A stretch of 64,000 nt of DNA from sequence record NC_070870.1; one strand, written 5' to 3'. The first letter of the stretch is position 1; every line of letters begins with the position of its first letter. The stretch is from Escherichia phage phi G17. Below are positions 10,670 through 45,663 of the stretch, in pieces. The translations under genes were made by a program, and so were the position numbers. The notes beneath the pieces are model-generated. The model saw only the letters and a list, made by a program, of their open reading frames with translations. It was not told the DNA's origin and searched no databases.

Positions 10670-13600
10670 ATGTCAACATTTGACCGTCTGGCAGGTTTCG
10701 CAGACAGCATCACTAATGCTAAGCAAGTCGATGTCTCTACTGCAACCTCTCAGAAGCAAGCTGCTCAAGGGCAAAGCCCTTTCCAATTAACCCCAGAGAA
10801 TGCTTACAATCTCCAGACTGGACGAGTAGGTAATCTTGGAACTGGTGCATTCGAACCAGGTTCACTTCAGGCTGATTTCACTCAAGCCTCTCCATTAGAA
10901 ATTATTAATAAGTACGGTAATGAGCAAGGTCTACAGATTCTTAATAGCCGAGCTAATGCTGCTGATGTTGTACGTCAGGACTTATCTAAACAGCGTACTA
11001 ACGCAGAAGCATTTGGCGATACTCTTTCTGGTGTTGGTCTTGGTGTTGCTAATACCCTTGGGGGCATTGCTGCTCTTGGCACAGGTCTGGTCAATGATAA
11101 TGCCGGGGCATCCATTGCTTCCGGGATGGATTGGCTGAATGAAGGTGTACGCAATCTCCAGTCTGATGCACTGAACGCTAATCGTAATGTTGTTCAGAAT
11201 CAGAACCAGATTACTGCACAAGAGAACCAGAAACTTTACGAACAAGATATTAAGAATGGGGAGAATGACTTAGTTGCCTCCTTGTCTCGCATTGGTCGTG
11301 ACGCTTTTGATTCTGTTGCTAATACACTTGATAATGGTATGGCTGCTTCCGATGGACTGAGTGAAGGCATTGGTTCCCTCTTTACCGGTGGCCCACTTAT
11401 CCGTGGTGTATCTGCACTTGGTAAAGTAATGGTAGGAGGTGATAAAGCTGTTAAGGGTATTACCTTAGCTGCTGAGTTAGGTTCACGTCCTGCACAGGTT
11501 GCACTGTCTGCCGGTCGTGTTGCTGCACCTGCTGTAGCAATCGGTGGTATGGAAGCTGGTGGTGCATACCAACAGACTGCTTCTGAAATCATGAAGATGT
11601 CCCATCAAGAATTGGCAAGTAAGTCTCCTGTTTACCAACAACATATTGCTGATGGTTTATCTCCTGATGAAGCACGTCGTCAGACTGCATCTGAAACAGG
11701 TATCACTGCTGCTGGCTTAACTGCTCCAGTTGCTGCTGCCACCGGTCCACTGGTATCTCGCTTTGAACTTAACCCACTTAAGGTAGGTTCACTGGCAGGT
11801 GCTGGTTCTAATATGCTGCGTGAAACAGTTGAAGAAGGTATTCAATCCGGCTTCGGACAGTTCGCACAGAACACTGCAATCAAGGAAAATGTTGATGCAT
11901 CCCGTGATACCCTCAAAGGGGTCGGTGAACAAGCAGGTCTGGGTGCACTCTATGGCTTCGGTAGTGCTGGAGTTGCTCAAGCTCCAGGTGCAACTGTTAA
12001 AGCTGCTGGTGCTGCCGTTGCTCCTGCTGTACGTACTACCCTGGCTGGTGCTTCTCTGGTTGGTAATGCATTAGCAAAAGCTGCCTCCCCTATTACTAAC
12101 ATCTTGGTTCAACGTGGCGAAGAAGTTGCTAAGCGTAATGAACAAGCGTCCCCTGTAGCAGATGCTACGGTTAGTGCTGCTGCACAGGAAGCTACTGCTC
12201 AGTCAGAACAAGCACAAGCAACTGTACAGGAAGCAGTAGATGCAATGGACATTACTCCTGAAGAGAAAGCTGCTGCTACTCAATATGCTTCTGACTTAAC
12301 ACAGGCAATGAACTTTGACCCAGTAGAAATAGAACAAGCTAATCCAGCAATCCGTGAAGCTGTTTCTGGTTCCACTAACCGTGTAGAAGCTATTCAGAAG
12401 ATGGCTGACTTGGTTAATACTGCTGAAGACCCTAACGTTCAAATGGAAGCTGCAATCCAGATGTATGACAATATTATGTCCATGGATAGCTTCATTAACC
12501 GTGACCCGGGTGCTCTGGCTAATCTGGAACAAGGTTCTCCTGCTGCTGCAATCGTAGACCAGTTCTCTGGCTTGATGGCTAACGTACAGAATACACCGAA
12601 GGTACTTCGTGCATTCCGTGCTATCCATTCCATGATTCAGGAACAGGCTGAAGCAGGTAAACTGAAAGCTACTGAAGAAGCTAACCAAGCCCAAGCAAAC
12701 AACATTGCTATGGCTGCTGATGTATCTCCAGAAGTGCTGGATGCTGATTCAGTGAACATGGTTCTGAAACACGCTAGCGAAGGTAAGATTACTCTGGGGA
12801 ATCGTCAACGTGCTGCCCTGCAATCGGCTGCTGCTGTCTTACAGGGTGCACGCGAGTTCGACGCTAAAGCAGAAGAACTAGGCTTACGACCTCAAGACAT
12901 TGTTAGTAAACAGATTAAGACCGACGAGTCTCGCTCTAATGAAGGCCAGTACTCTGCGTTGCAACATGCGAAACGCATTCGTTCTGCGTACAACTCTGGT
13001 AACTTCGATTTGGCCTCCGCTTATCTGAACGACTTTATGCAGTTCGCCCAGCACATGCAGAATAAGGTCGGAGCGTTGAATGAGCATCTGGTTTCGGGGA
13101 ATGCGGATAAGAATAAGTCTGTTCACTATCAGGCTCTCTCGCCTTCCCGTGAATGGGTACGTAGTCGTACTGGCCTCGGTGTCAATCCTTACGATACCAA
13201 GTCTGTTAAGTTTGCCCAGCAAGTAGGACTGGAAGCCAAGACCGTAGCTGATATTGCTAACGCACTTGCTACGGCTTACCCGGAGCTTAATGTTTCTCAT
13301 GTGAATGTTACCTCGTTGGATTCACGTCTGGACAAGCCAGCTGCCCAGGTAGTTAAAGAGTTCCGTCAAGGTGGTCTTGATGCCACTCAGTCTCAACAGA
13401 CTAATGAACCAGTGAATCAGGTTGATGAAACTCCTGCACCAGTGCAAGAGACTGCCCCCACTGTACAGCCTAAAGCTGAGCCGGTGGTAGAAAATAAACC
13501 TGCTCCTACTAAGGATACTAGTTCAAAAACAGAAGAAGTCTCTACTACTAAGTCTGAAACAGTGGATGCTACCCTCACTAATGAGGATACCACCCAGGAA

Positions 13601-16600
13601 GTAGCTGAAACTAAAACGGAAATGGAATCAGTGTTCCCTGTCTATAACAATGAAAAAACACCGAACCAGTTCCTGAAAGCATTTACTCTGCCGGAAGAAC
13701 CTAAGTCCCGTACCATTGGTTCTGAATCTCCTTTGACTGATGTTAAGCAAGCACTGTCTTCTGCTGCTCGCTTTGAAGCATTCACTCAAAAAGAAAATAA
13801 CGCTCTCACAGGTGATGTGATGAAACGTTATCAGGACTTGATGGACTTTGGTGAAACACTGAAGACTACTTTGTCTGACCGTCTGGCTAAGTTCCTTGCT
13901 AACAAGAATGTTGGTAAACGTTTTGCAGAAGGTACTGAAGCTAACCGTTGGGTAGGTGGAAAACTGCTGAATATCGTTGAGCAAGATGGTGATACCTTTA
14001 AGTTCAATAACCAGTTGTTAGAGACTGCTGTACTTGCTGGTCTGCAATGGCGACTGACTGCTACGCAGAATGCTGCCGTTAAAGATATGAAAGACGTAGC
14101 TGCTATTACTGGTGTAGAAGCATCTCTGTTACCAGAAGGTATTCTGGCTGAGTTTGAGAATGCTCAGACTCTGGTTGAAGCTACTAACTCACTGGCTCAA
14201 AAGATAGAATCCTATTGGGGTTTGAATCGTAATGCTAATGCACCACTGGGTTATACCAAAGGTATCCCAATGGCAATGGCTACAGAGATTCTGTCTTCCC
14301 TTATTGAGATGGGTGAAGTTAAAGAGTCTATGCTGGATGTGTCTGAAATTGACCCAGCCTCTAATAAGACTGTTGGTCTGTATACCATTGAAAAGCTGGA
14401 TGACAACGATGCTATTAACAAATTCCCTACTGCTATTGAGGAAGCTGTCCTCTTAGAACCAGAAGAGAAAATGTACTTTGGTGATGACATTCCTTCCGTG
14501 GCTCAAACTCAGTTACGTAACCCTGCTGTTAAGAATACCCCTGAACAGAAAGCTGCACTGAAAGCTGAACAGGCTACTGAGTTCCGTGTACACATGCCGA
14601 TGGTTAACTTCTATGAAGCAATGGGCCGTGAAAACATTCTGGAACTGATGGGTGCTGGTACTCTTAACCCTGAGCTACTGAACGTGAATACTGCTAAGTC
14701 ACTGGAAGGTAAAAACCTATCCGTGTCTATGGCATATGATTCTCTGTTCGGTGTTATCAGTCAGGTACGGGAACAAGAAGCAGGACTGGATACTCCTATC
14801 CATTATGGTTACAACATGACCCGTGTCGGTCGTATGCAGATGCTTGGCAAGAATAACCCACAATCCAGTAAACTGGTTCGTGAAGCAATTCTGCCAACCT
14901 TCTCTACTATCGACTTGAGTAATGAAAACAGCCAAACGTTCTCTGACTTCCAGTTAGGTCTGGCTCAGGCATTAGGTATCAAGGTACATAACATGTCCCG
15001 TGAAGCTATGTCTGAAAAGTTGACCAAGGCTCTGGAAGGTAATCTGAAACCTGCTGTTGATATGATGGTTGAGTTTGATAAGTCTGGTCACTTACCTACT
15101 GATGCAGTAGATATTCTGAAGACTTCTCTGGGTGGTGATAAATCCTTCGTAGCTCTCATGGCTCTGATGGAATATGCCCGTTACCTGAACAGTGACGACC
15201 GTGCCAACTTTAATACCCCACTGTACGTTGAAGCTGATGGTGTAACCAACGGCCCAATCAACGCAATGGTATTAATGACTGGTGGTAAGTTCACTCCAGA
15301 CTGGATTAAGAACACTGCTAAAGGTGGTCTTTTCTTTGATAAAGCTGGTAAGACTATGAACGAACATCGTTCACAGGATGACAGTGTTGACTTGTATGAA
15401 GCATCTACCAATGGTCTGCAACAAGCACTGAATGAGTTACGTACTACTTACCGTAACAACGTTCCTGTTATGAACCAGATGAATCATCTCCAGAAGATAA
15501 TGGACCTGTTCATTAAAGACTTTAACCTGAATGAAGACGGTACTCTGGACCTGAAACGTGGTATCGCTAAGAACCCACTCACCATTACCATCTATGGTTC
15601 TGGTGCACGTGGTATTGCTGGCAAGATGGTTAGTGCAATTACTGATACCATCTATGAACGCTTCAGCGACGTTCTGCAAGCACGTGCTGCTGACCCTAGC
15701 ATTTCCCCAGCTATGGCAATGTTTGGTAAGGAGGCTGCGTCTGAGGCCGATGCTCAGGCTATGCTGGATACTTTCCTTACTTCTATGGAAGCACTGACAG
15801 GTAATGTTCCAGTTATGCGTAAGGGTGAATTGTCTATTCAGCAAGCAGAAGGTGCACTGACTGGTAAGTTAGACCCTCAGAAGTTTACTGTATCTGGCAA
15901 TGCTCTGAAGAACTTACAAGAGAACATGCTCCACCTGTTCGTTGAACCAATGCGTACCGGTATCCAGAATACTGTTGGTGAAGGTCTGATGCACTCTACT
16001 GAGAACTTGCAGAAGGCTACCCAGATTCAATCTCTGGTATTGCAGGATATGTTCCAACAAGCAGTACAGGCTAAGCTGGCAGAAAAAGAAAATGACCCAA
16101 CCTGGAAGAAGGGTGATTTCTTAACTCAGAAAGAACTGAATGAAATCCAGGAATCATTATCTCCACTGGCCCCAATGATTGAGACTGGTTCACAGACTTT
16201 CTACATTGCTGGTAGTGAGAATACTGATGTTGCTAACCAAGTACTGGCTACCAACTTAGATGACCGTATGCGTGTGCCAATGAGCATCTATGCTCCTTCA
16301 CAAGCAGGTGTTGCAGGTATTCCATTTATGACCATCGGTACTGGTGATGGCATGATGATGCAGACTCTTTCTACTATGAAAGGTGCTCCGAAGAATACCC
16401 TGAAAATCTTTGATGGTATGAACATTGGTATCAATGACATCACTGATGCAAGTCGTAAAGCAAATGAGGCTGTATACACTTCTTGGCAGGGGAACCCTAT
16501 CAAGAATGTTTACGACTCCTACGCTAAGTTCATGAAGAATGTAGACTTCAGCAAACTGTCTGATGAAACTAAACAGGCTATCGCTAAGTCTGCTCTGGAA

Positions 16601-41729: not shown

Positions 41730-41954
41730 TTATTTTTTATAAATAAAAGGATTTCTGTAATCCCAGGCTCTATTAAGTTTTTCCAGCTTAAACCCTGCAT
41801 AACCTGATTCTTTAGACAGGGTTTCTTCTGCAATATCTACTGCGTTAATCGTGCATAAACGCCCATCTATACAGATGTTTTTGAAACTGCCAGTGGATTC
41901 CCTGTATAGTCCATTGGAATCTTTCTCCAACATAGTTGCATACCAACTTGCCAT
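41730..41954 (-). CDS. Hypothetical protein (74 aa from ATG at 41954; track start 41984 is TTG inside the terminator T-run)
   Basis: AGGAGG upstream of ATG at 41954. Confidence 0.4.
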   Translation of the reverse strand: MASWYATMLEKDSNGLYRESTGSFKNICIDGRLCTINAVDIAEETLSKESGYAGFKLEKLNRAWDYRNPFIYKK

Positions 41955-41980
41955 AAGTCCTCCTGGGGCAGTAATTGAAA

Positions 41981-42008
41981 CCAAAAAAAGACCTCCCGGA
42001 GGAGGTCT
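41981..42008 (-). terminator. Intrinsic terminator (minus strand) AGACCTCC-tccg-GGAGGTCT + TTTTTTT
   Basis: 8-bp stem, 7-T run. Confidence 0.6.
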
Positions 42009-42013
42009 TAGGT

Positions 42014-42253
42014 TTACTTACGATTCCGTCCTACGAAGAATTGTAATAGACGTTCCTCAGCATCATCCTGTTCCTTGGTGGCTACATAGTCGCGTGCATA
42101 GTAATACACACACCATAAGCCAAGAACACATGCAGAGAAACGGGCTACTACGAAGAACATCTCTTCCAGGCTCTGTGCACCATGTAGTGCAAATACAAAT
42201 TCCAGAACCAGGATGATACTTATAATCATTGCTTGGATAGCTAAACGTTTCAT
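42014..42253 (-). CDS. Small membrane protein (79 aa, two predicted TM helices)
   Basis: Hydrophobic segments IQAMIISIILVLEFVFAL and VVARFSACVLGLWCVYYY. Confidence 0.45.
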   Translation of the reverse strand: MKRLAIQAMIISIILVLEFVFALHGAQSLEEMFFVVARFSACVLGLWCVYYYARDYVATKEQDDAEERLLQFFVGRNRK

Positions 42254-43194
42254 TCTGTAATTGTTTCTCCGGGTATTAGTTTCCTAAATTGGATGAAATC
42301 CAGTAAGTTGCCTGAATACAGCTTACCTTCACGATCCATTGAAGTAACACCCTGTTCCCAGGTTAATGGGTTCTGGTTGTTAATGAACTTATCACCGAAC
42401 AGCATAGGAGTTGCCTGGTGTTCAGTAGGGGATGCATGAATAGGTTGGTCTTCAACTAACTTAGCAAACAATCCTAAGTCCTCTTCAATAGTAGAAGGAC
42501 GGCCTTCGAAATTGTTGTAAGAAGCACGAGCACAGCGAGCAGCACTTACTTTAAGAAGTAAGCCATACACTTCTGTAGCACTTGGTTCATCACGAGTAAT
42601 TCGTTGATGTTTGCAATGAGAGTAAGCAGCACTACGGTCAGGAAAGCCGATGTAAGGCAGATGCCACTCACCTTGGGACAGCTTAGATGGAACACTTTCA
42701 TTATGAGCCTTACGCATTGCTTGAGCCAATTCACGAATCTCTGGCTGTGCATCCTTATGGTCACGCAAGCCATAGAAGTTAGCCCAGCTAGTTGAGGTTA
42801 CCACTACACGGATATGTGTGAATGGCTCCAGAATACGGTTAACAATCTGCTTATGTACTTGCCCACGACGTAGTTGTTCAGCATATACAGCAGCAGCAGA
42901 TGCAGCGTTATCCCAGATAAACTTAGCATCCTCAATCTCCATAGGAGTGAGTTCTTCATCTGCTTGCATACCTTTCTGGTTCTTGCCCCAGTGACTTGGC
43001 ATCACTGGTTCATTACGAACCTGTTCAATGAATTTAGAAGTAGGAATAGCACGACTGCTTGAAGCATTACGGTTGAATACACGGTGGGTCATAAACTCAC
43101 TGTGGATGAATCGGGGATAGACCAATTCAAAGGTAGTAATACGAGTACCCGTTGCATGATGAACGGAATCTGCAATGACAGTTGCCTTAATCAT
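42250..43194 (-). CDS. thyX: ThyX-like flavin-dependent thymidylate synthase (314 aa)
   Basis: Segment HSEFMTHRVFNRNASSSRAIP resembles the ThyX RHR...S signature. Confidence 0.5.
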   Translation of the reverse strand: MIKATVIADSVHHATGTRITTFELVYPRFIHSEFMTHRVFNRNASSSRAIPTSKFIEQVRNEPVMPSHWGKNQKGMQADEELTPMEIEDAKFIWDNAASAAAVYAEQLRRGQVHKQIVNRILEPFTHIRVVVTSTSWANFYGLRDHKDAQPEIRELAQAMRKAHNESVPSKLSQGEWHLPYIGFPDRSAAYSHCKHQRITRDEPSATEVYGLLLKVSAARCARASYNNFEGRPSTIEEDLGLFAKLVEDQPIHASPTEHQATPMLFGDKFINNQNPLTWEQGVTSMDREGKLYSGNLLDFIQFRKLIPGETITE

Positions 43195-43637
43195 TAGAAT
43201 GACCTTAGATAGTTGGTAATACCACTACGGTTTTCTGTAATCCTCTTGGCCTGAACATATACCAGCTTAAACTCACTACGGGGTAGTTCCTGTAATACTG
43301 CTATACCTTCAGTAAGAGCCACAGAACACGCTACAGCGGTTTCTTCTTTAAAGGAGTACAAGTCTTCATACATGAGGGCTTCATACTCTTTACGGAGCAT
43401 ACAGAGAGCATCTCTTGCCTTATCACTTACTTCTTGTGAACCAGCAGACATAGCTAAGCTGTATATGATAAAGACTTGTTCGAAAACAAAGTCCAGTAAT
43501 CTATCAGGGGTGTTAGTACCCATGAATAATTTTGTTGTGTAGGAACGAGCTTTACGGTTGAGTACATACTCATCCTCTATGCCTTTCTTATAAAGAACAG
43601 GGTTTCGTTCCCTTTTTCGTAGGAATGGAATACGCAT
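43194..43637 (-). CDS. Hypothetical protein (147 aa)
   Basis: ORF; stop overlaps thyX-like start. Confidence 0.45.
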   Translation of the reverse strand: MRIPFLRKRERNPVLYKKGIEDEYVLNRKARSYTTKLFMGTNTPDRLLDFVFEQVFIIYSLAMSAGSQEVSDKARDALCMLRKEYEALMYEDLYSFKEETAVACSVALTEGIAVLQELPRSEFKLVYVQAKRITENRSGITNYLRSF

Positions 43638-43654
43638 TAGTAAGTCTTTCCTAG

Positions 43655-43685
43655 TAAATAAAAAAGCCCACGGGTTAGGTGGGCT
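43655..43685 (-). terminator. Intrinsic terminator (minus strand) AGCCCAC-ctaaccc-GTGGGCT + TTTTTATTT
   Basis: 7-bp stem and T-run. Confidence 0.55.
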
Positions 43686-43765
43686 TGGGTTAGGAGATGG
43701 ATAAGCAATGAGCTGGAAGTAACTTCCACAAATAGCCCTACTAGAGGGCTATTCAGGTAAGTTAC

Positions 43766-43972
43766 TTATTCAGCTTCTGCTTCAGGCTTAGCTCCAGACA
43801 GTGCTTTAGCTACATTACGACGAACAGAGTCGTAACCTACTTCAGTTCGTAGAAGAGAGCCGTCAACAAAAGCAATATCTGCTTTTCCGTCATCGCTGCA
43901 TTGTACTGTTACTACGTTTGCTGCAACTACTGTAAACTTACGACCATTTGCTTTGGTAGTGAATACTGACAT
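43766..43972 (-). CDS. Hypothetical small protein (68 aa)
   Basis: ORF. Confidence 0.4.
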   Translation of the reverse strand: MSVFTTKANGRKFTVVAANVVTVQCSDDGKADIAFVDGSLLRTEVGYDSVRRNVAKALSGAKPEAEAE

Positions 43973-43981
43973 GTTGTTTCC

Positions 43982-44488
43982 TTATTTACTGCTTCTCGCA
44001 GCTACTGGTTTGTTTTCCTGGTTATTGTACTTGCCTGTGTATGTGGCAGGTTCTTGAACCAGATGAAATAGTACTTGAGCTATCCCGGAACCAGCCGGGA
44101 TATGTAATTTCTTACGCCCGTGATAGACCAGTTCAAGGGTAAGATACCCTTTCCATCCTGGTTCTATTACGGTATTGAACACTGATAGTGCACGTCTTGC
44201 CCATGTAGACTTATCGTGAACGATAGCTACACAGGACGGGGACATGTTGAACTTCTCAATTGCTGAAGCCAATGCGAATTTACCAAGATGGTGTGATATT
44301 TGTTTTCCATCAACGACTTTCACCATTGGAATCAACCCAAATAAGCGATAGAAGGTAATGTCCTGCTTTATGCGTATGTCGTAACCAGCTTCACCCAATC
44401 CATAGCTTACACCATGCTCGGATACCTTATGGTCTGGGACATCCAGCAACTGAGATGAACGATATAGAGAATTACCATTAACAACCAT
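43982..44488 (-). CDS. dcd: dCTP deaminase (dUTPase-fold) family protein (168 aa)
   Basis: STWARRALSVFNTVIEPGWKGYLTLEL and GIAQVLF resemble dCTP deaminase core motifs. Confidence 0.6.
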   Translation of the reverse strand: MVVNGNSLYRSSQLLDVPDHKVSEHGVSYGLGEAGYDIRIKQDITFYRLFGLIPMVKVVDGKQISHHLGKFALASAIEKFNMSPSCVAIVHDKSTWARRALSVFNTVIEPGWKGYLTLELVYHGRKKLHIPAGSGIAQVLFHLVQEPATYTGKYNNQENKPVAARSSK

Positions 44489-45663
44489 TATTTCATTCCT
44501 TTAGGGATATGAACTACCTCCCCAAAAGGTACGGTAGCACTAGGGTTATTCAGAACACACCAGATGATTGGAATATCAAACGGGAGTTCTTCCATTGGGC
44601 GAACGTACATATCAGAGAATATGATTGCAGCGGTTGGCTTATTCTTAATAATCCATTCGCGTACTGGTTCAAGGTTTGTACCACCACGACCAGTAATCTT
44701 AATCTCTTCAAAAGTATCTTCTTCAGTGATGTCTATTTCTTCTTGGATAATATCGTCGAAGGTAATAAGGGACATCTTCTTAGGATTGAACTGGCTCTTA
44801 ACGTAGGCAACCTCTGAGTTAAAACGCAGAGAGTCAGCACTACTGATAGAACCAGATACATCCTCAAAGTATGCTAAATGTCGTAAACGTCCTTCATCAT
44901 CTTCCAGGGATGGTAGATAGATGTCAGTGAAACGACGGTTAGGTCTGGCCCACGTATAGCGTGAGTCATCAATGTCAGTGAAGAAGTCCATAAGGACTTC
45001 CTGCCAAGGAACCACTGGTTTAAGGAATTGGGTAATAACCTCTTCCATATGACCAGCACCTTTACCTGGCATCACTCCACCAGCCATCTTCTGGCTTTGC
45101 ATTGCACGTACTACGTTGTTGACAACAGCACCCTGGGACTGCCCCGAAGAGGGAGCTTTCATGTCGCCAGCAAGACCTGCTCCGGCACCCCCTGACGGCT
45201 GCTGCCTTTTCTGTGGGTTCTTCATCAGGTCATCGTAGATGTCTTCTTCGACCCATCCTTTATATTGAGGGTCTTTGCAAATACCTTCGTCGATACCAGT
45301 GAACTTGTAACCATCTTCCTCTAACTGAAGGTTAATGAAGTGGTCACATGCCTGGTTCCAGACTTCTGGGTCACGGCTTCCACAACGGATGCCATGCAGA
45401 TATGCCACATGCCAGAGTTCGTGCATTAGCACTGTTTCTCTTGCATCAGGACACATCCAGATAAAGAAGTCTGGGTTGAATCGTAGTTCTATCCCATCGG
45501 TACATGCAGTAGGACAATCCTCACGATTCCATGAGAACTTAAGACTACACAGCAATGAACCAAAGAAAGCAGCACTCCTGCCCAAAAATGCCTGTGCTTG
45601 AATACGGTCATACTCACGCATGAGTTGTTCATCACTAAGTGTGTGCTGAGGTATCTGGTTCAT
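44488..45663 (-). CDS. VWA-domain protein with N-terminal HExxH metallopeptidase-like region (391 aa)
   Basis: MHELWHVAYLHG (HExxH); MIDAS-like DVSGSIS; immediately downstream of MoxR-like ATPase. Confidence 0.55.
   Translation of the reverse strand: MNQIPQHTLSDEQLMREYDRIQAQAFLGRSAAFFGSLLCSLKFSWNREDCPTACTDGIELRFNPDFFIWMCPDARETVLMHELWHVAYLHGIRCGSRDPEVWNQACDHFINLQLEEDGYKFTGIDEGICKDPQYKGWVEEDIYDDLMKNPQKRQQPSGGAGAGLAGDMKAPSSGQSQGAVVNNVVRAMQSQKMAGGVMPGKGAGHMEEVITQFLKPVVPWQEVLMDFFTDIDDSRYTWARPNRRFTDIYLPSLEDDEGRLRHLAYFEDVSGSISSADSLRFNSEVAYVKSQFNPKKMSLITFDDIIQEEIDITEEDTFEEIKITGRGGTNLEPVREWIIKNKPTAAIIFSDMYVRPMEELPFDIPIIWCVLNNPSATVPFGEVVHIPKGMK

What the first reader, a model, noticed from the sequence alone, without database searches (positions are those of the whole stretch)
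42250..44488. Nucleotide-metabolism cluster: ThyX-like synthase and dCTP deaminase
The phage appears to carry its own dTMP-synthesis route (dCTP deaminase plus a flavin-dependent thymidylate synthase). The ThyX signature is degenerate (THR instead of RHR), so the enzyme may be divergent or may modify a different pyrimidine, which would be interesting if the phage DNA carries a modified base.
Basis: partly seen in the sequence, partly recalled or inferred. Interest (0 to 1): 0.4.

Follow-up and report, generated by a model that had tools for sequence, protein, structure and literature searches.

The report
Rearranged phage ThyX plus dCTP deaminase
This N4-like coliphage carries the already annotated pair of genes for making thymidine nucleotides, but its thymidylate synthase belongs to a large, untested ThyX branch in which a key arginine is lost and one active-site segment sits at the other end of the protein.

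Summary
On the minus strand, 42250-43194 encodes a 314-aa ThyX-fold protein and 43982-44488 a 168-aa dCTP-deaminase-like protein. The window is a G7C-like N4-type phage (Gamaleyavirus). The two genes are homologues of N4 gp30 and gp26 and carry these names in dozens of GenBank records, so the gene pair is not new.

T-H-R in place of R-H-R is real and is a family trait: 134 of 137 cluster representatives have it.

The ThyX segment carrying S30 and the H53 'HxSPxEH' motif is missing from its usual N-terminal place. It reappears after the core at residues 216-261 (hhalign E 1.5e-4; 0 of 200 shuffles reach the score). R78, E86, Y91, N163, R165 and H178 are replaced. The dUMP-binding and activating residues are kept.

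Gene neighbourhoods point to ordinary dTMP synthesis: dCTP deaminase, dCMP deaminase or ribonucleotide reductase lie nearby. About 30 Pseudanabaena-lineage genomes carry a chromosomal copy, and inteins sit in the conserved motifs.

A modified base is unsupported. The window strongly avoids palindromic restriction sites, and no base-modifying kinase, transferase or methylase is annotated in relative G7C.

Activity has not been tested. Interest is modest.

The parts
42250..43194 (-). ThyX-fold protein, 314 aa, homologue of N4/G7C gp30 ('FAD-dependent thymidylate synthase' in RefSeq). Layout: beta1 (res 3-12), then the core equal to T. maritima ThyX 60-199 (res 18-169), a linker (170-215), the relocated segment (216-261) and a family-specific tail (262-314).
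43051..43089 (-). ThyX motif variant THRVFNRNASSSR (T36-H37-R38...S46-S47-R48). It corresponds to T. maritima R78-H79-R80...S88-G89-R90.
   Evidence: Translation and alignment. T36 is present in 134 of 137 family representatives; H37 and R48 in 137 of 137. R78, H79 and R80 are invariant in 21 canonical ThyX sequences.
42412..42549 (-). Relocated active-site segment, res 216-261: VSAARCARASY...HASPTEHQA. It equals T. maritima ThyX res 21-61 ([11 protein letters not shown]...[11 protein letters not shown]), which carries S30 (S225 here), H53 (H253), E58 (E258) and H59 (H259).
   Evidence: Translation. hhalign of the C-terminal profile A2 against the canonical profile A3 scores 34.2, E 1.5e-4. 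The null from 200 column shuffles has mean 14.0, sd 2.8, max 25.7. Re-ordering the sequence in silico raises Thy1 from 51.6 to 60.6 bits and TIGR02170 from 53.5 to 64.5 bits, and extends profile coverage to positions 13 and 18; reversed-insert controls score 49.0 and 50.1. S225, H253 and E258 are in 137 of 137 representatives and H259 in 136 of 137.
43194..43637 (-). 147-aa protein, homologue of N4/G7C gp29. Its stop overlaps the ThyX-like start codon. It is an all-alpha helical bundle with a disordered basic N-terminus, and its function is unknown.
43664..43686 (-). Terminator-like G+C-rich hairpin followed by a T run. It lies between the 68-aa ORF and the gp29-like ORF.
   Evidence: Pattern scan and the sequence itself. 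G7C has annotated stem-loops in the equivalent region.
43766..43972 (-). 68-aa ORF, homologue of G7C gp27, function unknown.
   Evidence: phrog_7594 at E 1.3e-24; no Pfam hit.
43982..44488 (-). dCTP-deaminase-like protein, 168 aa, homologue of N4/G7C gp26. It has the 'KSTWAR' and 'EPGWKGYLTLE' motifs (S94, R98, E119).
   Evidence: Pfam DCD at 1.6e-16 and phrog_1663 at 1.1e-58. TIGR02274 scores 77.4 bits, below its 92.8 cutoff. The best PDB relatives are dCTP deaminases 3km3 (1.2e-11) and 4dhk (6.1e-11), with the same motifs aligned.
42014..42253 (-). 79-aa ORF overlapping the ThyX-like stop codon, homologue of G7C gp30.1, function unknown. It is followed by a terminator-like hairpin at 41988-42009.
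   Evidence: phrog_12633 at 6.4e-39; hairpin.

Best explanation
The two genes form a phage-encoded branch of dTTP supply. It is expressed with the middle (replication) genes of an N4-like phage whose DNA is more A+T-rich than its E. coli host.

The gp26-like enzyme deaminates dCTP to dUTP. Whether it also hydrolyses dUTP to dUMP is unknown; host Dut can do that step.

The gp30-like enzyme then methylates dUMP to dTMP by ThyX-type chemistry, using a flavin, methylene-tetrahydrofolate and NAD(P)H. This releases THF rather than DHF, so no DHFR is needed.

The synthase is not a canonical ThyX. It belongs to a very large, mostly viral clade that keeps the ThyX core and the residues that hold and activate dUMP: the equivalents of T. 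maritima H79, R80, N85, S88, R90, R147, N169 and R174. It differs in three ways. (i) The alpha1-alpha2 'HxSPxEH' segment (S30, H53, E58, H59) lies after the core instead of between beta1 and beta2. (ii) R78, E86, Y91, N163, R165 and H178 are replaced by T, A, A, T, T and D. (iii) It has gained its own invariant residues: H114-K115-Q116, W177-H178-x-P180 and R304 in a C-terminal tail.

Shown here: the ORFs, the fold, the non-collinear homology, the conservation pattern and the genomic contexts. Inferred: flavin binding, dTMP as the product, and that the clade-specific residues take over the roles of R78 and Y91.
For: Identity: the window is 88-93% identical to Gamaleyavirus genomes whose genes carry these names, and the genes map to G7C gp26 and gp30.

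Retained residues: H37, R48, R120 and R144 are in 137 of 137 representatives, S46 and N139 in 136, R38 in 133, aligned to Tm H79, R90, R147, R174, S88, N169 and R80.

Relocated segment: hhalign E 1.5e-4, 0 of 200 shuffles reach the score. In-silico re-ordering gains 9 to 14 bits against the wild type and controls.

Selection: the family has 5,248 cluster representatives at E <= 1e-3. Inteins are inserted at the THR motif, just before it, and inside H253|S-S-P-x-E-H.

Context: in 80 viral loci the gene lies within 8 kb of a Dcd-like gene (16 loci) or ribonucleotide reductase (23 loci), sometimes 9-109 nt away. N4-like roseophages pair the gp30 homologue with a dCMP deaminase instead (PMC2784036).

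Cellular copies: about 30 Pseudanabaena-lineage genomes carry a chromosomal copy, with all motifs present in the five full sequences read, among cellular genes.

No ThyA or canonical ThyX is detectable elsewhere in the window.

Dcd-like protein: the catalytic-type motifs align with solved dCTP deaminases.
Against: No member of this clade has been assayed, as far as I could find.

Both proteins score below NCBIfam's equivalog cutoffs.

The lost residues matter in the canonical enzyme. R78 hydrogen-bonds dUMP (PMC3498832) and faces N1/C2=O of the reduced flavin (PMC11940539). Y91 mutation slows flavin oxidation about 1000-fold (PMC11940539). S88A, R90A and Y91A mutants are slow at the carbon-transfer step (PMC8316439). 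The chemistry or the cofactor could therefore differ.

The structural claim for the relocated segment rests on sequence profiles. I had no model coordinates, so I could not superpose it on the alpha1-alpha2 position.

I did not verify that Pseudanabaena lacks thyA or a canonical thyX.
Confidence: 0.7

Rival explanations
1. The ThyX-like enzyme makes a pyrimidine nucleotide other than dTMP, for example 5-hydroxymethyl-dUMP from water capture of the exocyclic methylene intermediate. The phage DNA would then carry a modified base that helps it resist restriction.
For: R78 is replaced by T and Y91 by A at positions tied to flavin and carbon-transfer chemistry (PMC11940539, PMC8316439). [quoted passage not shown] Jumbo-phage comparative work notes that TS and ThyX superfamily members may make thymidylate 'or a modified pyrimidine' (PMC7824862).
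Against: The window strongly avoids restriction palindromes. GATC occurs 16 times against about 210-242 expected, GCGC 5 against 144 expected from base composition, and 15 of 64 palindromic hexamers are absent. That is expected if the DNA is cleavable and unmodified, and it explains restriction escape by itself. BASEL attributes type II resistance of N4 to missing sites (PMC8594841). No nucleotide kinase, glycosyl- or amino-transferase or DNA methylase is annotated in the first 40 kb of relative G7C, which covers its early and middle genes. The gene's neighbours elsewhere are ribonucleotide reductase, dCTP deaminase or dCMP deaminase (PMC2784036). Pseudanabaena-lineage genomes hold a stable chromosomal copy. 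R174, which activates uracil, is invariant.
Confidence: 0.06
2. The enzyme is a ribonucleotide (UMP) C5-methylase like PolB of polyoxin biosynthesis, or has broad UMP/dUMP specificity, and does not mainly feed DNA synthesis.
Against: The margin over true thymidylate synthases is negligible. The genomic context is DNA replication and dNTP synthesis, not secondary metabolism. A lytic phage has no obvious use for 5-methyl-UMP.
Confidence: 0.03
3. The ThyX-like gene is a decayed or non-catalytic relic, with a degenerate signature because the function has been lost. The host's ThyA would make all the thymidylate.
For: The score is below the equivalog cutoff. Several canonical invariant residues are missing. 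E. coli has its own ThyA (established knowledge).
Against: Conservation is extreme: 12 residues are invariant across 137 representatives clustered at 50% identity, and the family has thousands of clusters. Inteins sit in the motifs. The reading frame is intact and 95% identical to relatives. Pseudanabaena-lineage genomes maintain a chromosomal copy.
Confidence: 0.04

Closest known systems
Canonical flavin-dependent thymidylate synthase ThyX (T. maritima TM0449, PDB 1O26; M. tuberculosis 2AF6; PBCV-1 A674R)
   Different: The segment carrying S30 and H53 follows the core instead of preceding it. R74, Q75, R78, E86, Y91, N163, R165 and H178 are replaced. The protein is 314 aa rather than about 220, with a conserved 50-residue tail (R304 invariant). 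It is invisible to tblastn with TmThyX and scores below the TIGR02170 cutoff. No biochemical data exist.
N4 gp30 / G7C gp30 'FAD-dependent thymidylate synthase' and N4 gp26 / G7C gp26 'dCTP deaminase' (Schitoviridae)
   Same: They are direct homologues in the same gene order, gp24-gp25-gp26-...-gp29-gp30-rIIA. DNA identity to G7C is about 90% and 92-93% to other members.
   Different: Nothing essential differs. This window lacks the imm-like gp27.1 and the HNH gp24.1 insertions present in G7C.
PolB, the ThyX-family UMP/dUMP methylase of polyoxin biosynthesis (PDB 4P5A)
   Different: PolB has the canonical collinear topology (my reading of its 226-residue chain and of its phmmer match to TmThyX residues 6-208). 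It works in antibiotic biosynthesis, not in a replication gene block.
T. thermophilus Thy1 with an extra C-terminal domain (PDB 6J61)
   Same: It is a ThyX with extra C-terminal sequence.
   Different: 6J61 matches TmThyX collinearly over residues 2-217, so its extension is an addition. It is not the relocated alpha1-alpha2 segment.
dCTP deaminase Dcd (E. coli 1XS1) and the bifunctional dCTP deaminase-dUTPase (M. tuberculosis 2QLP/2QXX)
   Same: It belongs to the same trimeric dUTPase-superfamily domain and shares the 'KSxxAR' and 'EPGW.G..TLE' motifs.
   Different: It is shorter (168 aa) and scores below the equivalog cutoff. Sequence alone cannot tell whether it is mono- or bifunctional.
T4-type route: dCMP deaminase (cd) plus ThyA-type Td plus DHFR (frd)
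   Same: The logic is the same: divert deoxycytidine nucleotides to dUMP, then methylate.
   Different: The enzymes are unrelated. Deamination is at the triphosphate level. A ThyX-type enzyme does not oxidise folate to DHF, and no DHFR is annotated in the first 40 kb of the relative G7C.

Membership tests
ThyX / Thy1 (flavin-dependent thymidylate synthase, PF02511, TIGR02170) | ThyX alpha/beta fold | tested here: met
ThyX / Thy1 (flavin-dependent thymidylate synthase, PF02511, TIGR02170) | Curated HMM thresholds | tested here: inconclusive
   The Pfam gathering score is passed (51.6 versus 24.8 bits), but only for profile positions 60-190. The NCBIfam equivalog cutoff is failed (53.5 versus 87.9 bits).
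ThyX / Thy1 (flavin-dependent thymidylate synthase, PF02511, TIGR02170) | ThyX motif R-H-R-x7-S-x-R (Myllykallio et al. 2002, recalled knowledge; R78, H79, R80, S88 and R90 are invariant in 21 canonical sequences) | tested here: not met
   The motif reads T-H-R-x7-S-S-R. Thr is present in 134 of 137 family representatives.
ThyX / Thy1 (flavin-dependent thymidylate synthase, PF02511, TIGR02170) | Residues that bind and activate dUMP: S88, R90, R147 and R174 (R174 activates dUMP; S88A and R90A mutants are slow; PMC8316439). The assignment of R147 is from memory. | tested here: met
   The equivalents are S46, R48, R120 and R144. They are invariant in 136-137 of 137 representatives.
ThyX / Thy1 (flavin-dependent thymidylate synthase, PF02511, TIGR02170) | Flavin and carbon-transfer residues R78 and Y91 (PMC11940539, PMC8316439). 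E86 is invariant in canonical ThyX, but only its backbone is described as contacting the flavin (PMC11940539). | tested here: not met
   They are replaced by T36, A49 and A44. A49 is in 137 of 137 representatives.
ThyX / Thy1 (flavin-dependent thymidylate synthase, PF02511, TIGR02170) | Folate/flavin-stacking His53 in 'HxSPxEH', and Ser30, located N-terminal to the RHR motif | tested here: inconclusive
   The residues are present and invariant (H253, S255, P256, E258, H259, S225). They are encoded C-terminal to the core. Their spatial equivalence was not checked in 3D.
ThyX / Thy1 (flavin-dependent thymidylate synthase, PF02511, TIGR02170) | Bound FAD, NAD(P)H oxidation, CH2THF-dependent conversion of dUMP to dTMP, homotetramer | not testable with these tools
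   This needs protein biochemistry or thyA complementation.
dCTP deaminase (Dcd; PF22769, TIGR02274) | Curated HMM thresholds | tested here: inconclusive
   The Pfam DCD score of 61.2 bits exceeds the cutoff of 27. The TIGR02274 score of 77.4 bits is below its 92.8 cutoff.
dCTP deaminase (Dcd; PF22769, TIGR02274) | Catalytic Ser, Arg and Glu (E. coli S111, R115, E138; numbering from memory) | tested here: met
   S94 and R98 in 'KSTWAR' and E119 in 'GYLTLE' align with the same motifs of solved dCTP deaminases 3km3, 4dhk and 4xjc.
dCTP deaminase (Dcd; PF22769, TIGR02274) | dCTP to dUTP activity; monofunctional or bifunctional | not testable with these tools
   No reliable sequence discriminator was available.
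ThyA-fold dUMP/dCMP hydroxymethylases (enzymes that make modified-base precursors) | ThyA (PF00303) fold or homology | tested here: not met
   Neither protein has a ThyA-family Pfam hit. tblastn with E. coli ThyA (sequence from memory) against the window gives nothing better than E about 1.
All-alpha NTP pyrophosphatase / dimeric dUTPase (considered for the gp29-like ORF) | MazG/dUTPase-like four-helix fold | tested here: not met

The most novel reading that the evidence does not exclude
The N4-gp30-type proteins are not plain thymidylate synthases. They would be a mechanistically distinct, topologically permuted class of flavin enzymes whose remodelled active site (no R78, no Y91, new K115/H178/R304) yields a different C5-modified deoxyuridylate. 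That product would give partial, so far undetected DNA modification and add to the unexplained restriction resistance of N4-like phages.
Probability: 0.05. Interest if true: 0.8.

Novelty: new variant of a known kind. Interest (0 to 1): 0.35.

Why it matters
The gene pair itself is routine annotation.

What deserves attention is the enzyme. A clade of more than 5,000 sequence clusters is labelled 'FAD-dependent thymidylate synthase' in databases. It lacks an arginine and a tyrosine that mechanistic studies of ThyX treat as conserved catalytic residues, and it assembles its active site from segments in a different order.

If these proteins are active thymidylate synthases, they are a natural experiment. 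They would show which ThyX residues are truly indispensable, and how an active site shared between subunits tolerates rearrangement. ThyX is pursued as an antibacterial target, so this is useful to know.

If they are not thymidylate synthases, thousands of phage annotations are wrong.

The chromosomal copies in the Pseudanabaena lineage offer a cheap genetic test.

Tried and rejected

2. Fusion partners of long family members as functional clues. The extra sequence is inteins with HNH or LAGLIDADG endonucleases, not metabolic domains.

3. A direct profile search of the C-terminal extension against PDB sequences found nothing at E <= 10. The homology only shows in profile-profile comparison.

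4. phmmer and hmmsearch of the whole protein against PDB give only marginal ThyX hits (E 0.04-0.05).

5. Literature searches for a described permuted ThyX, for assays of N4 gp30, or for base analysis of N4-like DNA found nothing relevant.

6. A simple circular permutation was considered and not adopted. The N-terminal beta1 strand seems to remain at the N-terminus, so the change looks like relocation of one segment, perhaps through tandem duplication and loss. The short 'HQATPMLF' after the motif resembles the start of beta2.

7. The afdb50 fold library was unavailable.

8. Model coordinates are not exposed, so I could not superpose the relocated segment in 3D.
Full report
**What is at the coordinates**

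All genes in this part of the window run on the minus strand. Two more ORFs lie between them: 43194-43637 (147 aa, its stop overlapping the start of the 314-aa ORF) and 43766-43972 (68 aa).

- The 314-aa protein matches Pfam Thy1 (E 1.3e-13) and phrog_85 'thymidylate synthase' (5e-114).
- The 168-aa protein matches Pfam DCD (1.6e-16) and phrog_1663 'dCTP deaminase' (1.1e-58).
- Both stay below NCBIfam's equivalog cutoffs: 53.5 versus 87.9 bits and 77.4 versus 92.8 bits.

**Which phage, and is the pair known**

The 2.6-kb region is 87-93% identical to some 60 Escherichia, Shigella and Klebsiella phage genomes of the G7C group (Gamaleyavirus, Schitoviridae). In G7C the genes are gp26 ('dCTP deaminase'), gp27, gp29 and gp30 ('FAD-dependent thymidylate synthase'). 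Each is annotated as a homologue of the N4 gene with the same number. They are flanked by gp24 (AAA ATPase) and gp25 (VWA/DUF2201) on one side and rIIA/rIIB on the other, as in the window. The N4 gp30 family has been called a putative ThyX since at least 2009 (PMC2784036). The gene pair is therefore already known as annotation.

**The ThyX-like protein is a ThyX-fold protein**

**A relocated active-site segment**

Canonical ThyX has about 77 residues before the RHR motif. This protein has 35.

The missing piece in T. maritima is residues about 20-59. It comprises helices alpha1-alpha2, with Ser30 and the 'H53-E-T-P-F-E-H59' motif. It reappears after the core. Residues 216-261, 'VSAARCARASYNNFEGRPSTIEEDLGLFAKLVEDQPIHASPTEHQA' (42412-42549), align with T. 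maritima 21-61, '[41 protein letters not shown]'.

I verified that my recalled T. maritima sequence is identical to PDB 1kq4/1o26.

The evidence for the relocation is as follows.
- Profile-profile comparison of the C-terminal 150 residues (19 sequences) with a canonical ThyX profile (21 sequences) picks exactly this pairing: score 34.2, E 1.5e-4.
- This is almost as strong as the match of the core itself (residues 18-169 with Tm 60-199, E 5e-5).
- 200 column-shuffled versions of the C-terminal profile score 14.0 +/- 2.8, with a maximum of 25.7.
- I re-ordered the sequence in silico as residues 1-13, then 203-260, then 17-202. Pfam Thy1 rose from 51.6 to 60.6 bits and TIGR02170 from 53.5 to 64.5 bits. 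The alignments reached profile positions 13 and 18.
- The same construct with the insert reversed scored 49.0 and 50.1 bits.

Within the relocated segment the canonical invariants R28, D41, L44, L48, H53, P56, E58 and H59 are all kept, as is the nearly invariant S30.

The N-terminal strand (residues 3-12) seems to stay in place. I therefore read this as relocation of one segment rather than a clean circular permutation. The mechanism, perhaps tandem duplication followed by loss, is an inference. I could not superpose the segment in 3D because model coordinates are not exposed.

**Which catalytic residues are kept**

I aligned 137 representatives of the family, each standing for a cluster at 50% identity, and mapped them onto T. 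maritima numbering.

Kept:
- H79 as H37 (137/137)
- R80 as R38 (133)
- N85 as N43 (125)
- S88 as S46 (136)
- R90 as R48 (137)
- R147 as R120 (137)
- N169 as N139 (136)
- R174 as R144 (137)

In the relocated segment, S30 (as S225), H53 (H253) and E58 (E258) are in 137 of 137, and H59 (H259) is in 136.

Replaced:
- R78 by T36 (134/137)
- Y91 by A49 (137/137)
- E86 by A44
- R74 by S32
- Q75 by E33
- N163 by T133
- R165 by T135
- H178 by D148

The literature assigns these roles in the canonical enzyme. R174 activates dUMP, and S88, R90 and Y91 act in carbon transfer (PMC8316439). R78 hydrogen-bonds dUMP (PMC3498832) and faces N1/C2=O of the reduced flavin. H53 stacks on folate or flavin, S30 bonds flavin O4, and Y91 mutation slows flavin oxidation about 1000-fold (PMC11940539).

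The family thus keeps the nucleotide site and the H53/S30 elements, but has rebuilt part of the flavin environment. It has also acquired its own invariant residues: H114-K115-Q116, W177-H178-x-P180 and R304. I propose that these compensate for the losses. That is an inference only.

**Size and selection of the family**

A full HMMER scan finds 5,248 cluster representatives at E <= 1e-3 and 2,849 at E <= 1e-30.

The unusually long members are not fusions to metabolic domains. They carry inteins with HNH or LAGLIDADG endonucleases. These are inserted at three places:
- before residue 32 ('PRFIH|C..')
- directly after the T-H-R motif
- inside 'H253|S-S-P-x-E-H'

Inteins usually sit in conserved functional motifs of replication-related proteins (general knowledge). 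Their presence in the relocated motif suggests it is functionally important.

**Genomic context elsewhere**

I analysed the 80 best viral loci out of at least 575.
- 16 loci, all N4-like, have a Dcd-like gene within 8 kb.
- 23 loci have ribonucleotide reductase genes within 8 kb, confirmed by Pfam. Some are only 9, 88 or 109 nt away on the same strand.
- N4-like roseophages replace the dCTP deaminase with a dCMP deaminase next to the gp30 homologue (PMC2784036). This swaps one dUMP-producing enzyme for another, which is what a dUMP-consuming partner predicts.

A scan of one genome per prokaryotic species found 152 hits. About 30 of them are Pseudanabaena and related species, including the complete chromosomes NZ_CP159508.1, CP192607.1 and OY969811.1. 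Each carries a copy of about 275 aa. In the five sequences I read in full, every motif is present: MTHR, SSSRAIP, HKQVVNR, GEWHLP, GRCARVSY and HLSPFEH. The flanking ORFs look cellular by my reading of their sequences: Der GTPase, a RecO-like protein, a glycosyltransferase-TPR protein and an ABC ATPase. I recognised no phage genes.

This looks like a housekeeping enzyme. I could not check that thyA and canonical thyX are absent from these genomes.

**The dCTP-deaminase-like protein**

Its nearest solved relatives are dCTP deaminases: 3km3 (1.2e-11), 4dhk (6.1e-11), the M. tuberculosis bifunctional enzyme and E. coli Dcd. The 'KSTWAR' and 'EPGWKGYLTLE' motifs align with theirs. Sequence does not tell whether it stops at dUTP or goes on to dUMP. 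Host Dut can supply that step.

**The ORFs in between**

A terminator-like hairpin at 43664-43686 separates the Dcd/68-aa unit from the gp29/ThyX-like unit. Another hairpin follows the small ORF downstream of the ThyX-like gene.

**Modified base?**

Two points keep the idea alive. R78 and Y91 are lost. [quoted passage not shown]

The window itself offers a simpler reason for that resistance, which is extreme avoidance of palindromic sites.
- GATC: 16 observed against 242 expected from composition or 210 from a Markov model.
- GCGC: 5 against 144 from composition.
- CGCG: 13 against 144 from composition.
- 15 of 64 palindromic hexamers are absent.
- 62% of palindromic hexamers are below half their expectation, against 22% of non-palindromic ones.

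Site avoidance is selected only if the sites are cleavable. This argues against global base replacement.

Other points also count against a modified base. No kinase, transferase or DNA methylase is annotated in the first 40 kb of the relative G7C. The uracil-activating Arg is invariant. The contexts above are those of ordinary dNTP synthesis. I rate the modified-base reading at about 5%.

**Verdict**

- The dTMP-route interpretation is the best supported (about 0.7) and is already the standard annotation.
- 'Divergent' is right, and understated.
- The finding is ordinary at the level of the phage. At the level of the enzyme it points to a large, uncharacterised, topologically rearranged ThyX clade. 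I found no description of it in the searchable literature.

Noticed in passing
whole window 1-64000: The window strongly avoids short palindromes. GATC occurs 16 times against about 210-242 expected, GCGC 5 and CGCG 13 against 144 expected from base composition. CTGCAG occurs 0 times against 27 (Markov) and GGTACC 0 against 14. In all, 15 of 64 palindromic hexamers are absent. This probably explains much of the restriction resistance reported for N4-like phages.
   Followed up: partly
family members P0132, P0134, P0177, P0166, P0213, P0259, P0187, P0232: Inteins with HNH or LAGLIDADG homing endonucleases interrupt the ThyX-like protein at three sites: before residue 32, right after the T-H-R motif, and inside the relocated H|S-S-P-x-E-H motif.
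   Followed up: yes
L113-L161 (e.g. L124 = NZ_CP159508.1 2679714-2692466; L144 = CP192607.1): About 30 Pseudanabaena and Phormidium tenue genomes carry a chromosomal member of this otherwise mostly viral family, about 275 aa long. It sits among cellular genes, with no phage genes nearby. I did not check whether it is the cell's only thymidylate synthase.
   Followed up: partly
L007 4543-5562, L009 7920-8942; A1 rows P0088, P0093, P0094, P0096, P0108: In some N4-like relatives the ThyX-like ORF starts with 'M(N/P)RIPF(F/L)KPRKKKKQ.LFHKQ'. This resembles the N-terminus of the gp29-like protein, 'MRIPFLRKRERNPVLYKKG'. The body of gp29 seems to have been deleted there, leaving its first ~25 codons fused in frame to the synthase.
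   Followed up: partly
window 43638-43765 versus G7C 13284-13742: G7C carries an 'immunity to superinfection' gene (gp27.1) between gp27 and gp29, and an HNH endonuclease (gp24.1) between gp24 and gp25. Both are absent from this window. That accounts for the ~90% query coverage of most relatives.
   Followed up: no
window 44488-45663 (-): The gp25-like protein is a DUF2201 putative metallopeptidase plus VWA-like protein by Pfam (3.4e-55 and 7.8e-34). PHROGs (phrog_1314) and several GenBank records call it 'HNH endonuclease', probably a propagated misannotation. With the gp24-like AAA ATPase it travels with the Dcd-like gene in all 16 N4-like loci examined.
   Followed up: no
L083 (JANQNF010000027.1, 69,347 bp): A contig binned as an 'archaeon' MAG encodes an 82%-identical ThyX-like protein and has the length of a Gamaleyavirus genome. 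It is almost certainly a mis-binned phage contig.
   Followed up: no
window 41900-44800: Sigma-70-like promoter matches are fewer than chance: 1 found against 6.3 +/- 2.6 in shuffles. Terminator-like hairpins are more frequent: 5 against 1.8 +/- 1.5. This fits N4-type transcription by phage RNA polymerases.
   Followed up: no
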